Shown here in pieces: positions 5,689 through 26,242 of a DNA stretch of 64,000 bases. The position numbers and the translations under genes are program-made. Origin of the DNA: a virus; the IMG/VR virus record IMGVR_UViG_3300036761_003567, positions 43,224-107,223 of that record; one strand, given 5' to 3'. Position 1 is the stretch's first letter. Every line of letters begins with the position of its first letter. The notes under the pieces were generated by a model, which did not search any database, was not told the DNA's origin, and was given only the letters and a program-made list of their open reading frames with translations.

Positions 5689-6081
5689 ATGGCTATTGTC
5701 AGCGCATTCCGGATCGATGACGTCGTGTATCTAAGGTCCTCGGCGCAGATCGGCTTCCTGGAAGCCTACAAGATCAGCGGGATCTTCCAGCTCAGGAACG
5801 ACCGGTATGTCTACACGATCGACATCAACAGGAGGCCGCCGTCCGCTCAGACGCTCGGCGACCATATTGACCTGAAGCGCATCCAGACGCTCTACTTCAC
5901 GGAGGATGAGCTTCTGACGTTCTGCGAGGCCGAGACGCTTGTCGTGCAGAATCTCGAGAGAAGGCTGCGGGAGGAGAAGGCTCGGTTCGCTGCCAGATGT
6001 TCAGTTTCACCAGGATCGGGAAGCACCGGTCCGACTCCGCCTGGAAGCGGGAGCGCCGGATCAACTGGGAGTGCCCCATGA
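5689..6081 (+). CDS. hypothetical protein with G/S/P-rich tail
   Basis: AGGAG SD; AAAAGATA motif upstream. Confidence 0.65.
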   Translation: MAIVSAFRIDDVVYLRSSAQIGFLEAYKISGIFQLRNDRYVYTIDINRRPPSAQTLGDHIDLKRIQTLYFTEDELLTFCEAETLVVQNLERRLREEKARFAARCSVSPGSGSTGPTPPGSGSAGSTGSAP

Positions 6082-6527
6082 ACAGACGATCTCTTTTAAA
6101 AGCCCTCACACTCCTCCCATTTGCACCCCTGCTCGGACGCAAGACAGAAGCAGCCATTCCGAATGGAGAAGACGACCTAGCCTATTGGCGGCGCATTCCG
6201 AATGGAGAAGACGACCTAGCCTATTGGCGGCACAAAGTAGAGCATTGCGAATCGATTGGGGACCATAAGAAGGCAGAGCTTTACCGCAGGAGACTGCTGC
6301 TCGCCGAGGACGTCGCTCTAATCCACGACATCCAACGGGCCAGAAATGGTCGGAAATTCTCTATGCACGTGGAACGTGTTGGTCGGGAAACTCTTTGCGT
6401 CACGATTCCAGCCGACCTATCGCCCCAGGAGGCCGTGAAGTATCTCGATTCCATAAAGAGACACTTTCGAAAAGTTGGGTGTCGCAATGCACGACGAGGT
6501 CTGGCACAAGCATATCTATTTAGCTGA
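6078..6527 (+). CDS. Tat-signal-like protein carrying a T4 gp20 portal-like fragment
   Basis: ATG at 6078 overlaps the previous stop; MNRRSLLK plus hydrophobic stretch; LLLAEDVALIHDIQRA...DLSPQEAVKYLDSIKRHFRK resembles portal LKLLEDAVVIYRITRA...GNMPARKA. Confidence 0.6.
   Translation: MNRRSLLKALTLLPFAPLLGRKTEAAIPNGEDDLAYWRRIPNGEDDLAYWRHKVEHCESIGDHKKAELYRRRLLLAEDVALIHDIQRARNGRKFSMHVERVGRETLCVTIPADLSPQEAVKYLDSIKRHFRKVGCRNARRGLAQAYLFS
6155..6231 (+). repeat. 39-bp in-frame tandem duplication (IPNGEDDLAYWR twice)
   Basis: cattccgaatggagaagacgacctagcctattggcggc at 6155 and 6194. Confidence 0.95.
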
Positions 6528-6536
6528 ACAAAAAGA

Positions 6537-7949
6537 ATGTCAGACGAACAGACCCTTCACGATAAGGATTCTCGCACGTTCGGCGAGAACGAAGAACAAG
6601 CCATCATAGCGCTAGCCTTCGACCTCCCGGAGTTTTTTAGCTCCGTCGTGCCCTACCTCCAGATCGATCACTTCAAGCACATCCCGTCCAAGTTCCTGTT
6701 CGCCATCATCAAGAAACTCATAGAGAAGCACCGGGTATCGCCGACCCGCGGCCTGGTAAAGGACATTGCCAGGAAGAATCTCACGGTCGATGACGATTAT
6801 GAGCCGATCATCTCCCTCATCGACAAGCAGTCTGATCCCCGGGAAGCTCCGGTTGTCAAGCAGTCCGTCGTCGAATTCGCCAAGCGTCGCGCCCTGGGAC
6901 TCCTCTACTCCAAGGAAGTCATGGAGGAAGTCTCGCGCGGAAATTATGACCGCGTGAACGAGATCGTCGAATCAGCCAGGAAGATCACCGACGTCAGCCA
7001 GACGGGAATCTGGTTCTTCGAGCGCGCTCACGAGCTCTTCACGGTGGAGAATGAGATCAAGTTCACGACGGGCTTCCCGAAGCTGGATAGGTACATCAAC
7101 GACGGCGGGCCTACGATAAGCGACGTCTTCGTCTGGATGGCTCCGACTAACGTCGGCAAGACTTACATGCTCTGCAACACGGGCGAGGCTAACGTGCGGG
7201 CCGGGCACAACGTCGTACACTTCTCCTTCGAAGGAGACATCAAGAAGACCCAGGTCAGGTACGCCGGCGCATTCACCAATGTGCCGGTCGTCACGCATAT
7301 GCATCGGATGGCGCACAAGGATCAGATCACGCAAATCCTGAGCCGATGCAAGGCCCATTATGGAGCGGAACTCGTCCTCTACAAGTTTCCTGCGGACGAG
7401 GTCAGCGTAGACACCCTCCATCAGGTCATGGACTTCCTGAGGCGGAACAAGGGCTTCAATCCGAGAGTCGTGATTATCGACTACCTGGAACTCATGGTCT
7501 CGCGGAACAAGTTCATGAACCGGGACGATTACGCTAGACAGAAGTCCATCTCCACGGAGCTGTGCGGATTCGCCGACAAGGAAAACGTGGCAGTCTTCAC
7601 GGCGACGCAGACCAACCGGTACGGCATGAACGAGGAAGAGCAGTCCAGCAAGAAGACGGCCGGGACTGGCGGCGGGAAGTCAATCGACCTGGATAAGATC
7701 GCAGAGTCCTTCGGGAAATCTATGCCGCTTTCCTACGTCGTGAGTATCAATCAGACGAAGAACGAATACGAGGCCGGCTACGACGCGAGCCGGGCTGAAA
7801 ACACAGCCGCCCGAGCGAGACTCTTCATCGCCAAGAATCGGAACGGTCCGAAGTCCGAGACAGTAGCTATCCGTATGAACTACGTCACCATGAAGGCCAA
7901 GGAGGACGAGCCGGCCGTCAACATTACGACGGTAGGCGGGAATTCCTAA
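6537..7949 (+). CDS. replicative SF4 DNA helicase (DnaB / T4 gp41-like)
   Basis: TTGFPKLD, Walker A APTNVGKT, SFE, IIDYLEL, ATQTNR, IAKNRNGP. Confidence 0.92.
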   Translation: MSDEQTLHDKDSRTFGENEEQAIIALAFDLPEFFSSVVPYLQIDHFKHIPSKFLFAIIKKLIEKHRVSPTRGLVKDIARKNLTVDDDYEPIISLIDKQSDPREAPVVKQSVVEFAKRRALGLLYSKEVMEEVSRGNYDRVNEIVESARKITDVSQTGIWFFERAHELFTVENEIKFTTGFPKLDRYINDGGPTISDVFVWMAPTNVGKTYMLCNTGEANVRAGHNVVHFSFEGDIKKTQVRYAGAFTNVPVVTHMHRMAHKDQITQILSRCKAHYGAELVLYKFPADEVSVDTLHQVMDFLRRNKGFNPRVVIIDYLELMVSRNKFMNRDDYARQKSISTELCGFADKENVAVFTATQTNRYGMNEEEQSSKKTAGTGGGKSIDLDKIAESFGKSMPLSYVVSINQTKNEYEAGYDASRAENTAARARLFIAKNRNGPKSETVAIRMNYVTMKAKEDEPAVNITTVGGNS

Positions 7950-24462: not shown

Positions 24463-24957
24463 TCAAACCTCGCCAAGGGCCTTCTCAAGCCTCTGCCGCA
24501 AAGACTCCGGGTATCCAGCGCGTGATGGAAGCGGAGGCGGCTCCTCAGGAGCAGCCTTAGGGAGCGGAGGCGGCACCTCTGCCTTCTTCTCCGATGCTAG
24601 TTTCGCGACGACAGCCCGCACATCCTTCTCAATCGCGGCTTCCCATTCACCACGGACGTTGTTGTGCCAGAGATTCTTGGGGATCGTCACGCCACCCACT
24701 TCCCACTCCAGGACTTCTATTTCTGCCTTCTGGCCTGGAGCCGCAACCGCAACGCCATCCGCCGCGATAGGCCTCTTCTTACCGAAATCCGGCTTGTCGT
24801 GCTTGAGCTCGGCCCGCCAGTCCACCTCGATGATGTCGCCGACCGAGCGGTCATTGGTAAGCTTTACATCGAAGAACGTCCGAGGATCGAGAGCCACCGC
24901 ATGGCGTCCGGAAATGACTTCGCTGATCGCCTGTTCCAGCCGTTCCAGGAATGTCAT
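24463..24957 (-). CDS. hypothetical late-type protein
   Basis: CAAAGATC-N4-ATG; MTFLERLEQAISE N-terminus. Confidence 0.6.
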   Translation of the reverse strand: MTFLERLEQAISEVISGRHAVALDPRTFFDVKLTNDRSVGDIIEVDWRAELKHDKPDFGKKRPIAADGVAVAAPGQKAEIEVLEWEVGGVTIPKNLWHNNVRGEWEAAIEKDVRAVVAKLASEKKAEVPPPLPKAAPEEPPPLPSRAGYPESLRQRLEKALGEV

Positions 24958-25550
24958 GTCTGATCTTTGCTAAAATAGGGGATTATGCTTCCGTTGTGTG
25001 CCTTATAGAGGACGGCATCAGGCCACTCCTTCCCGATCGCATCCAAGACAGTCGGCTCGTTATCGATCACGAACTTGGGTATGTAGTTCTTCCTCTTGAT
25101 GGCATCCACCTTATATTCTGGCGCCTTCAGCATCCGCTGGCCTTCCGGCTTCAGGATGATATCCGTCAGCGGAATGCCCTTGAGCACTTTCATGGCGCTG
25201 TTGATCATCTTTTCCGGCCGGCCGGAGACGGCTACCACGGGGAGGCTTGACTTGCTGGCCAGGATACGGATGAAATCGTAAATGGCTCTATGTGGCGCAT
25301 CCAGATGCGTGAAGGCGTCGTCCAGGAACATCTTGAAGAACTGACTGACCTTGTCCCTATCCTCCTGGGATTGCTTCGCCTTCTGTTTTAGGGCATCCAG
25401 CTTTTCTTCCCAGTCCTCGGGGGTGGCCTCGATGTCGAGCTGCCTGAGGGACTCTACTGCCCGATTCCCGACCGCGACGAGGGTGTCGTCGATGTCGGTT
25501 ATGATGACCTCGAGGCCGAGGACTTCACAGAGCAGACGTTCGAATGCCAT
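24954..25550 (-). CDS. HAD-superfamily phosphatase (PNKP-phosphatase-like) with LLCE leader
   Basis: DIDDTL, VSGRP, YK, VIDN motifs; CAAAAGTA-N4-ATG. Confidence 0.75.
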   Translation of the reverse strand: MAFERLLCEVLGLEVIITDIDDTLVAVGNRAVESLRQLDIEATPEDWEEKLDALKQKAKQSQEDRDKVSQFFKMFLDDAFTHLDAPHRAIYDFIRILASKSSLPVVAVSGRPEKMINSAMKVLKGIPLTDIILKPEGQRMLKAPEYKVDAIKRKNYIPKFVIDNEPTVLDAIGKEWPDAVLYKAHNGSIIPYFSKDQT

Positions 25551-25579
25551 ACGGTACTTTTGGTTCGTATTTTAATTCC

Positions 25580-26242
25580 ATGGACGCGCCAAAGGTCAAG
25601 AAGTATCCCTTCATCGACGAGGTTGGTTATGTCCCGAATGAGATTATAAAGAAATGGGCGGGGGTCATAGGTAAAATACCCAAAGGGCCTCTGCCCAAAA
25701 TCATCTCAAGCCAGGAAGAATTCGTAAAAGAGTTCGGCACACCCTCACCCGCAAATTCATTCGAGAAGAATTTTACATTTCCCTTGCTCAAGAAAGTGAA
25801 TCCCGGCGTGAATTTCTTCGCCGATAGTCTGGTCAGCGTGCAACCAATGCCGACACCGTCCATGAAAGGGCTGAAGGCAGCCTGGTCCGTAGAGGCTGTG
25901 GAAGACCTAAAGGCGGTTCACGGCATTGACATAGGAGAGCGACTTCAAGAAGAACTGATCCAGGCAATGTCCCAGCAGATGGCCAAAGAGGTCGATGAAC
26001 AGATTCTTAAAGACCTTATAGAGCAGGTCCAGGAAGCGAAGCGTAGGGTGGCGATAAAGGCAGAGGAGAAGAGAAGGGAAGCCGTGTGGCGCAGTACTTT
26101 CAGCGTCATTGGCCGGAGATATTTGGACCCGGAAGAAATAAGAGCCGAAGAAGAGTCGGAAATCGAGACAGTGGAAAGAAAAGTCATCGTGGTCGTGCCG
26201 GACTTGCCGTTCGGATTAGGCTGTAGGCGGGTTCTGGTCTAG
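25580..26242 (+). CDS. mosaic of T4-type major-capsid (gp23) and tail-sheath-like fragments
   Basis: FPLLKKV.P...ADSLVSVQPMPTPS joined directly to LKAAWSVEAVEDLKAVHGID...EVDEQILKDL; upstream KGP..ISSQEEFVKEFGTP; GTATTT-N7-ATG. Confidence 0.75.
   Translation: MDAPKVKKYPFIDEVGYVPNEIIKKWAGVIGKIPKGPLPKIISSQEEFVKEFGTPSPANSFEKNFTFPLLKKVNPGVNFFADSLVSVQPMPTPSMKGLKAAWSVEAVEDLKAVHGIDIGERLQEELIQAMSQQMAKEVDEQILKDLIEQVQEAKRRVAIKAEEKRREAVWRSTFSVIGRRYLDPEEIRAEEESEIETVERKVIVVVPDLPFGLGCRRVLV

What the first reader, a model, noticed from the sequence alone, without database searches (positions are those of the whole stretch)
6078..26242. Possible system: 'virion-fragment' genes dispersed outside the structural operon
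Seen: two independent intact ORFs (6078..6527 and 25580..26242) consist of the most conserved bits of portal, capsid and possibly sheath. A third (22826..23278) has a fibre-like collagen snippet. Known: these virion proteins are common triggers of abortive-infection sensors (Lit, CapRel, Avs). Inference: the phage may keep a panel of trigger mimics that titrate host sensors or poison assembly of related phages. This is a hypothesis only.
Basis: inference. Interest (0 to 1): 0.8.

Follow-up and report, generated by a model that had tools for sequence, protein, structure and literature searches.

The report
Mini capsid protein sharing a tail tag
One of the three flagged genes of this jumbo-phage fragment really is a conserved 220-residue protein built from two separated pieces of the major capsid protein, and it shares a short C-terminal peptide tag with four unrelated phage proteins, which suggests a common docking signal (possibly for loading into the capsid) and not a panel of virion-fragment decoys.

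Summary
The window is the right-hand 64 kb of a 107 kb IMG/VR phage contig, about 29% complete, so probably from a jumbo myophage. Only one of the three ORFs is a virion fragment. ORF 25580-26242 matches a full-length gp23-type capsid protein in two colinear blocks: N-terminus 1-100 and strand plus long helix 304-358. It lacks the ~200 residues between them and everything after. It recurs as a short protein (147-226 aa, about 11 distinct sequences). Its non-capsid tail is the most conserved part, so it is not debris. ORF 6078-6527 has no virion similarity. ORF 22826-23278 has only a short, length-variable collagen-like repeat. The contig has no portal, terminase or sheath fragments.

A different link is real. 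Following an earlier first-reader note on this same genome, I confirmed that five unrelated ORFs, two of the three flagged ones among them, end in P-x-G-x-[LMV]-G-x-R-[KRV]-[VIL]. Shuffles give 0.03 hits against 4 observed, and 1.47 Mb of other viral DNA gives none. The tag is kept in homologues and encoded by different codons. It resembles encapsulin targeting peptides.

Best reading (about 0.4): a shared docking tag, probably for the capsid. The decoy idea is neither shown nor excluded. The scan noted this stretch before only in overlapping windows of this genome.

The parts
25580..26242 (+). Mini-gp23 gene (220 aa): an MCP-derived protein with a coiled coil, a conserved tail and a C-terminal tag
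   Evidence: Pfam Gp23 40.2 bits. Two colinear blocks against a full MCP. Homologues of 147-226 aa all start MDAPK. About 11 distinct sequences on about 20 contigs.
25567..25574 (+). GTATTTTA element 13 nt before the ATG, with no Shine-Dalgarno sequence; a promoter-like motif shared with other tagged genes
   Evidence: GTATTTCA occurs 14 times against 1.7 expected.
25637..25858 (+). Block 1 (residues 20-93), homologous to MCP residues 21-100 (propeptide / N-arm / first E-loop strand, including the Gol-equivalent VQPM segment)
   Evidence: BLASTP E 7e-9. hhalign 91.6%. Poorly conserved in diverged family members.
25871..26035 (+). Block 2 (residues 98-152), homologous to MCP 308-358 = T4 gp23 257-308 (strand plus long P-domain helix)
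   Evidence: BLASTP E 3e-11. hhalign 98.9%. PDB T4 gp23 E 3e-5. 59-71% identity in diverged members.
26084..26239 (+). Conserved non-MCP tail (residues 169-220), ending in the tag (residues 207-220, nt 26198-26239)
   Evidence: 83-85% identity and no gaps in the most diverged members. No match to any other protein among 1.84 billion representatives.
22826..23278 (-). 150-aa protein with a length-variable collagen-like G-X-Y stretch, an invariant C-terminal domain and the tag (nt 22829-22867)
   Evidence: Homologues P0158 and P0159 (66-67% identity) keep the N-terminus, C-terminal domain and tag. Tag scan.
23275..24237 (-). 320-aa tagged protein of unknown fold (tag nt 23278-23319). Its stop overlaps the start of the 150-aa gene (ATGA).
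   Evidence: Tag scan. No Pfam or PHROG family. Atlas leads are weak.
24243..24250 (-). GTATTTAA element 13 nt before the ATG of the 320-aa gene
58748..59071 (+). About 107-aa tagged ORF in the high-GC half (tag nt 59030-59068)
   Evidence: Tag scan. The start was chosen by inspection of the 195-aa frame.
6078..6527 (+). Examined and excluded: a 149-aa ORF with no virion-derived segment and no tag
   Evidence: 100% identical in DNA in relative L019, so there is no information on selection.

Best explanation
Five otherwise unrelated proteins of this jumbo phage share a short C-terminal docking peptide, P-x-G-x-[LMV]-G-x-R-[KRV]-[VIL] followed by 1-3 residues. They are window 25580-26242, 22826-23278, 23275-24237 and ~58748-59071, plus contig C1:35130-35747. 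The peptide recruits them to one common receptor. The most likely receptor is the gp23-type (HK97-fold) capsid or procapsid, in the way encapsulin cargo peptides bind the inner P-domain surface of their HK97-fold shell and T4 or P1 targeting sequences load diverse proteins into the head.

The mini-gp23 is one member of this set. It arose from the major capsid protein by losing residues ~101-303 (E-loop tip and insertion domain) and everything after ~358. It gained a heptad-repeat helix and the tagged tail. Its retained helix block would let it pair with capsid or scaffold surfaces during head assembly, as a scaffold-like or internal head protein.

Shown: the capsid origin of the two blocks; conservation of the short architecture and of the tail; and the existence, C-terminal position, lineage specificity and peptide-level conservation of the tag.

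Inferred: that the tag is a docking signal, that its receptor is the capsid, and what the mini-gp23 does once there.
For: Tag enrichment: the strict pattern lies in the last 16 residues of 4 ORFs (loose pattern 5) against 0.03 (0.3) in shuffles, and 5 of 7 loose matches anywhere on the contig are C-terminal. 1.47 Mb of other viral loci give 0 strict hits. Position matrix: the five tags score >=19.5 bits and the next C-terminus 9.4. A matrix built from two founders still recovers C1:35130-35747 at 13.0, above the control maximum of 9.3. Conserved residues use different codons and the downstream DNA is unrelated. The tag is near-invariant (13-16 of 16 residues) in homologues of two families, while the regions upstream vary.

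Resemblance: the tags are preceded by Pro/Gly-rich linkers, as I recall for encapsulin cargo (from memory, not checked here). Published encapsulin targeting peptides (GGDLGIRK and others) are C-terminal and bind the inner P-domain pocket (PMC10960027; PMC8229669). One phage tag shares 5 of 8 residues with GGDLGIRK.

Capsid link: one tagged protein is capsid-derived and another has a weak cement-protein hit, PF09956 at E 0.014.

Precedent and co-regulation: unrelated head proteins sharing only a targeting sequence are known in T4 (PMC3012670; PMC7411985) and P1 (PMC9024508). Three tagged units share a GTATTT[ACT]A-N5-ATG arrangement.
Against: No capsid gene is on the contig, so no receptor could be examined. 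The similarity to encapsulin peptides rests on about 8 residues and could be chance or convergence. The cement hit is below Pfam's cut-off. The tagged genes lie among nucleotide-metabolism and glycosyltransferase genes, not in a head module. The shared promoter-like arrangement also precedes a dNMP-kinase gene, so late expression is not shown. A motif-free comparison of C-termini recovers the tagged set only modestly: the largest clique is 4 against 3 in controls. The regex was written after seeing the tags. The mini-gp23 tag is one residue shorter than the others. Both AlphaFold models were unusable.
Confidence: 0.4

Rival explanations
1. Cytoplasmic capsid mimic. The protein displays the MCP surfaces that host sensors read, or that MCP uses in assembly. 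It either titrates capsid-sensing defences without activating them or poisons the capsid assembly of competing phages. The tag serves something else, such as oligomerisation.
For: The retained blocks coincide with the regions read by the known capsid sensors: Gol in the first quarter of gp23 (PMC3014915) and the P-domain sheet plus spine helix for CapRel-SJ46 (PMC9712102). The protein is conserved and cannot form a full HK97 fold, since it covers only 51 of 376 Pfam positions plus the N-terminus. It stands alone on the plus strand between minus-strand genes, like an accessory gene.
Against: The Gol-equivalent segment is 12/32, 0/32 (deleted) and 5/32 identical in diverged members, while the non-capsid tail is 83-85% identical, so selection acts mainly on the non-mimic part. 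Detectability bias explains why the 'most conserved bits' are what is seen. No defence or anti-defence family hit was found. The other two ORFs of the proposed panel are not virion fragments.
Confidence: 0.2
2. The tag docks the five proteins to a partner other than the capsid, for example a tail or baseplate component, a chaperone or protease, or an intracellular phage compartment. The MCP-derived part of the mini-gp23 has been exapted as a generic helical scaffold.
For: Two tagged proteins look like fibre or decoration proteins and not internal cargo: a collagen-like stalk with a globular end, and a beta-rich N-domain with weak structural neighbours among phage and collagen-containing proteins. 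Tail genes are on this contig but head genes are not. All the tag statistics fit any common receptor equally well.
Against: No known tail or compartment targeting peptide resembles the tag, whereas encapsulin peptides do. Two tagged proteins have capsid-related similarity, one strong and one weak.
Confidence: 0.2
3. Recombination debris: the mini-gp23 is a decaying remnant of a duplicated capsid gene, and the shared C-terminal peptide is coincidental.
For: In-frame duplications and deletions occur in the N-terminal part across the family. The family is rare: 3 representative clusters among 1.84 billion.
Against: The ORF stays open at 56-99% identity across about 11 distinct sequences, the tail and tag are near-invariant, and all indels are in frame. 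Chance expectation for the tag is 0.03 per contig.
Confidence: 0.05

Closest known systems
T4 gp23 / gp24 major capsid and vertex proteins (Pfam PF07068, HK97 fold)
   Same: Two sequence blocks are homologous: the N-terminal ~100 residues, and the strand plus long helix equivalent to T4 gp23 257-308.
   Different: Only 220 aa. It lacks the E-loop tip and insertion domain and the whole region after MCP ~358, so it cannot form the HK97 fold. It carries a heptad-repeat helix and a conserved tail that no capsid protein has.
Family 1 encapsulin targeting (cargo-loading) peptides, e.g. T. maritima GGDLGIRK
   Same: A short C-terminal peptide after a flexible linker, with a G-x-hydrophobic-G-x-basic core, shared by unrelated proteins. 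The receptor in encapsulins is an HK97-fold shell.
   Different: Here it is in a phage, there is no encapsulin shell gene on the contig, binding is untested, and 1-3 extra residues follow the basic pair.
Capsid targeting sequences of T4 internal proteins/Alt and of P1 DarB
   Same: The same logic: diverse, unrelated proteins share only a short targeting sequence that loads them into the head. The cargo includes anti-restriction proteins.
   Different: Those signals are N-terminal, and in T4 they are removed by the prohead protease. There is no sequence similarity to the tag here.
Scaffolding proteins and prohead proteases with C-terminal capsid-binding ends (SPN3US gp245 propeptide; P22 gp8 and the HK97 protease from memory)
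   Same: An elongated helical protein with a C-terminal end that would bind the shell interior. The mini-gp23 model has a 62-residue helix, and C-terminal targeting has been proposed for the SPN3US protease.
   Different: No sequence similarity, and the mini-gp23 is not in a head module. The HK97 paper (Duda 2013) could not be read here.
Capsid-derived triggers of abortive infection (Gol/Lit; MCP/CapRel-SJ46)
   Same: The retained MCP regions overlap those sensed by these systems.
   Different: No phage-encoded capsid mimic turned up in the single literature search made for one. The Gol-equivalent segment is not conserved in the family.

Membership tests
Gp23-type major capsid protein (PF07068) | Significant match to the family profile | tested here: met
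   40.2 bits against a cut-off of 24.4. It is the only match on the contig.
Gp23-type major capsid protein (PF07068) | Coverage of the whole HK97 fold (E-loop, P-domain sheet, A-domain) | tested here: not met
   The Pfam match covers profile positions 148-198 of 376. Only MCP 1-100 and 304-358 align. The tail alignment to MCP 358-408 has near-zero confidence.
Encapsulin cargo targeting peptide (Family 1) | Short conserved motif at the extreme C-terminus of otherwise unrelated proteins | tested here: met
   Five ORFs; 5 of 7 matches are C-terminal. Peptide-level conservation.
Encapsulin cargo targeting peptide (Family 1) | Sequence agrees with published targeting peptides | tested here: inconclusive
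   The G-[DE]-L-G-x-R-K core resembles GGDLGIRK but differs from the GSLxIGSLK type. It is too short for statistics.
Encapsulin cargo targeting peptide (Family 1) | Encapsulin shell gene (PF04454) in the same locus | tested here: not met
   No PF04454 match on the 107 kb contig at E<=1.
Encapsulin cargo targeting peptide (Family 1) | Peptide binds the inner P-domain pocket of the shell | not testable with these tools
   The cognate MCP is not on the contig and no complex prediction is available.
T4-type capsid targeting sequence | N-terminal propeptide removed by the prohead protease | tested here: not met
   The shared motif is C-terminal. No prohead protease is on the contig.
Collagen-like phage fibre protein | G-X-Y repeat region recognised by collagen or fibre profiles, plus a fibre-type flanking domain | tested here: inconclusive
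   About 7 uninterrupted triplets, length-variable in homologues. No Pfam Collagen hit. PHROG fibre hits have E>=0.019 and cover the repeat only.
Portal / sheath / terminase fragments (the claimed panel) | Partial profile hits in short ORFs | tested here: not met
   Portal_T4: none. Terminase_6N: none. Sheath: only one full-length gene in a 985-aa frame.

The most novel reading that the evidence does not exclude
A tailed phage uses an encapsulin-like C-terminal cargo-loading peptide to pack a set of unrelated proteins into its gp23-type head. One cargo is a capsid-derived mini-protein delivered with the DNA as a pre-emptive mimic that blunts capsid-sensing host immunity or steers head assembly. 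That would be a living link between phage capsids and encapsulin cargo loading.
Probability: 0.1. Interest if true: 0.85.

Novelty: new variant of a known kind. Interest (0 to 1): 0.6.

Why it matters
Short terminal signals that load proteins into phage heads are known for T4 and P1 (N-terminal). Encapsulins use C-terminal peptides on an HK97-fold shell. A C-terminal, encapsulin-like tag on five unrelated proteins of a gp23-type jumbo phage would connect the two systems. It would give a simple sequence rule for finding head-associated or injected proteins in uncultured jumbo phages, and a handle for protein loading. The capsid-derived mini-protein is an unannotated family. If it acts on assembly or on capsid-sensing immunity, it would be a new kind of phage accessory protein. 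If the tag turns out to bind something else, the result is still a defined five-member regulon-like set that can be tested.

Tried and rejected
1. Split or intron-interrupted capsid gene: rejected. The ORF is contiguous, no other Gp23 piece is on the contig, and the tail is conserved as protein.

2. Tail derived from the MCP C-terminus, as I thought by eye: not supported by BLASTP. hhalign extends into MCP 358-408 only at near-zero confidence.

3. Terminase-like and sheath-like segments in the mini-gp23 (earlier notes): rejected. The whole N-part is colinear with the MCP N-terminus.

4. Tag as a by-product of a DNA repeat: rejected.

5. Structure route: AlphaFold of the mini-gp23 alignment (pLDDT 47) and of the cement-like protein (pLDDT 36) were unusable, so no fold search was run.

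6. Context of the homologues:
- Viral and metagenome scans with alignments and DNA patterns gave one full MCP locus.
- Otherwise they gave nothing or spurious hits.
- So synteny and dN/dS could not be done.

7. Phage-record tblastn for the four other proteins: no match.

8. ESM Atlas: no usable lead.

9. Selection test on ORF 6078-6527 through L019: uninformative, the two are 100% identical.

10. Expression timing from the GTATTTCA-type motif: unresolved, because it also precedes a dNMP-kinase gene and the SSB gene.

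
Full report
**Setting.**
The window is G000:C1:43224-107223 of a 107,223-base linear IMG/VR virus record that CheckV rates about 29% complete. It is therefore a fragment of a much larger, probably jumbo, phage genome. Window 4.6-13 kb encodes a T4-like replication and recombination module:
- UvsX-like recombinase
- DnaB-like helicase
- UvsY-like mediator
- gp32-like SSB
- exonuclease
- RusA-like resolvase

Further on lie glycosyltransferases, an HNH endonuclease, a dNMP kinase and many ORFs with no family. The only classical structural gene I found on the contig is a full-length tail sheath, 40 kb upstream of the window. 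There is no T4-type portal, terminase, prohead protease, HK97-type Phage_capsid or encapsulin gene. So the window has no 'structural operon' for the three ORFs to be dispersed from.

- It passes Pfam's Gp23 threshold (40.2 bits against 24.4), but only over 55 residues.
- Against a full-length 533-aa gp23-type capsid protein found in another viral contig (L002:7098-8699), BLASTP gives two colinear blocks. Residues 20-93 match MCP 21-100 (E 7e-9) and residues 98-152 match MCP 308-358 (E 3e-11).
- A profile-profile comparison with 40 full-length MCPs confirms both blocks, at 91.6% and 98.9% probability.
- The second block equals T4 gp23 257-308.
- The protein is thus the MCP N-terminus joined almost directly to the strand and long helix that, in the MCP, follow the E-loop and insertion domain. 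About 200 residues are missing between them, and everything after ~358 is replaced.
- The N-terminal pieces that sister notes read as terminase-like and sheath-like are simply the MCP N-terminus.

**It is a selected protein, not debris.**
- Six clusters of short homologues (147-226 aa, 56-99% identity) exist. They comprise about 11 distinct sequences on about 20 contigs from JGI, ENA and Logan assemblies.
- All full-length members start at the residue encoded at 25580.
- A profile search of 1.84 billion representatives finds only three clusters with this architecture. All other hits are full MCPs or fragments that match the helix block only, and nothing matches the tail.
- In the most diverged members the Gol-equivalent segment is 12/32, 0/32 (deleted) and 5/32 identical. 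The helix block is 59-71% identical. The 52-residue tail is 83-85% identical with no gaps.
- Indels are all in frame, and in the helix after the MCP block they come as repeats of a heptad-like unit.
- AlphaFold gives only a long helix (residues 120-181) at low confidence.

**The other two ORFs.**
- ORF 6078-6527 has no virion family hit at E<=1, only noise against PDB sequences, and no match in phage records.
- It is 100% identical in DNA in a 93%-identical relative (L019). So it recurs, but that says nothing about selection.
- It has a weak Tat-like N-terminus and an exact 39-nt tandem duplication.
- ORF 22826-23278 has about seven uninterrupted G-X-Y triplets. Its two homologues keep the N-terminus and the last 70 residues almost invariant, while the collagen-like stretch varies in length. 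Nothing shows that it is a fragment of a fibre.

**A different link: a shared C-terminal tag.**
An earlier first-reader note on this genome (e1-6026150) proposed a shared C-terminal tag, and I tested it.
- The pattern P-x-G-x(0,1)-[LMIV]-G-x-[RK]-[KRV]-[VIL] lies in the last 16 residues of four ORFs, five with the leading Pro dropped. Codon-block shuffles give 0.03 and 0.3. Five of the seven loose matches anywhere in the six-frame translation are C-terminal.
- The five are 25580-26242, 22826-23278, 23275-24237, ~58748-59071 and C1:35130-35747.
- In 1.47 Mb of other viral loci there are no strict hits and 4 loose hits.
- A position matrix separates the five (>=19.5 bits) from the next C-terminus (9.4). 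Built from two founders only, it still recovers a third ORF above the control maximum.
- The conserved Gly, Leu, Arg and Pro use different codons in different genes, and the downstream DNA is unrelated. The similarity is therefore at the peptide level.
- The tag is near-invariant in the homologues of both families that I could align.
- A motif-free all-against-all comparison of C-termini gives only modest support: the tagged ORFs form the only 4-clique, against a maximum of 3 in controls.
- I note that the regex was written after I had seen the tags.

**What the tag resembles.**
- Published Family 1 encapsulin targeting peptides are C-terminal and include GGDLGIRK. They bind a pocket on the inner P-domain surface of an HK97-fold shell (PMC10960027; PMC8229669).
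- The phage tags share the G-[DE]-L-G-x-R-K core and are preceded by Pro/Gly-rich linkers.
- In phages, T4 internal proteins and Alt, and P1 DarB, are unrelated proteins that share only a short head-targeting signal, which is N-terminal. C-terminal targeting has been proposed for the SPN3US protease.
- One tagged protein is capsid-derived, and another has a sub-threshold hit to a phage cement family (E 0.014).
- This is the basis for my preferred reading: a common docking peptide, most likely for the capsid.
- It remains an inference. The cognate MCP is not on the contig, and neither structure model was usable.

**Co-regulation.**
GTATTTCA occurs 14 times on the contig against 1.7 expected, and GTATTT[ACT]A 29 times. 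Three tagged transcription units carry TCGTATTT[C/T/A]A exactly 13 nt before the ATG, with no Shine-Dalgarno sequence. The same arrangement also precedes the likely true start of the dNMP-kinase gene. So the tagged genes belong to a wider regulon, and expression timing is unresolved. Motif copies and a tagged ORF occur in both the 54% and the 62% GC halves of the window, which argues against a chimeric contig.

**The decoy hypothesis.**
- The literature supports part of the idea. Gol lies in the first quarter of gp23 and is its most conserved region (PMC3014915). CapRel-SJ46 contacts the P-domain sheet and spine helix (PMC9712102). These are the regions kept in the mini-gp23.
- But the most conserved regions are also the only ones that would stay detectable in any diverged derivative.
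- The Gol-equivalent segment is dispensable in the family, and selection is strongest on the non-capsid tail.
- I therefore rank a pure cytoplasmic decoy below the docking-tag reading. The two can be combined as a packaged mimic, which is my novel case.

**Limits.**
Synteny and dN/dS for the homologues could not be done.
- The same stretch was noted before only in overlapping windows of this same genome, not on other DNA.

Noticed in passing
whole contig; e.g. window 10295, 19378(-), 31895(-), 44153, 52588: GTATTTCA occurs 14 times against 1.7 expected (GTATTT[ACT]A 29 times, GTATTTGA 0), usually 5-45 nt before a start codon. It is probably a phage-specific promoter element. Several genes have only a 5-nt spacer to the ATG, suggesting leaderless or near-leaderless mRNAs.
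   Followed up: partly
window 26905-27636 (-): The dNMP-kinase ORF probably starts at 27357 (150 aa, with a P-loop near the N-terminus), 13 nt after a GTATTTAA element, and not at the 243-aa ATG.
   Followed up: partly
window 6078-6527 (+): A small ORF with a Tat-like N-terminal signal (weak, E 0.18) and an exact 39-nt tandem duplication that encodes a 13-residue repeat. It is identical in the related contig L019.
   Followed up: partly
window 4638-11530 vs L019: Identity to a related phage contig is mosaic: UvsX 81%, SSB 90%, orf394 93%, but 6078-6527 and 7949-8631 are 100% identical. This suggests recent recombination between related phages.
   Followed up: partly
window 35758-36114 and 36077-36607 (+): Two adjacent, overlapping ORFs end in nearly identical C-terminal peptides, giving the best-scoring pair of all C-termini on the contig. 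They are likely tandem paralogues.
   Followed up: no
window 16913-18091 (-): A 392-aa HNH / endonuclease VII-like gene lies in the lowest-GC stretch of the window (48%). It is probably a free-standing homing endonuclease island.
   Followed up: no
window ~37000-64000: GC rises from about 54% to 60-65%. The large ORFs there (e.g. 57195-58733 and 59606-61345) have no Pfam or PHROG family, yet phage motif copies and a tagged ORF occur there too.
   Followed up: partly
L002:5324-7066 and 7098-8699: A related viral contig carries a 580-aa ORF directly upstream of the full-length gp23-type MCP. By eye it looks like a prohead protease fused to a coiled-coil scaffold (no family search was run on it). 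It is useful as a reference head module.
   Followed up: no
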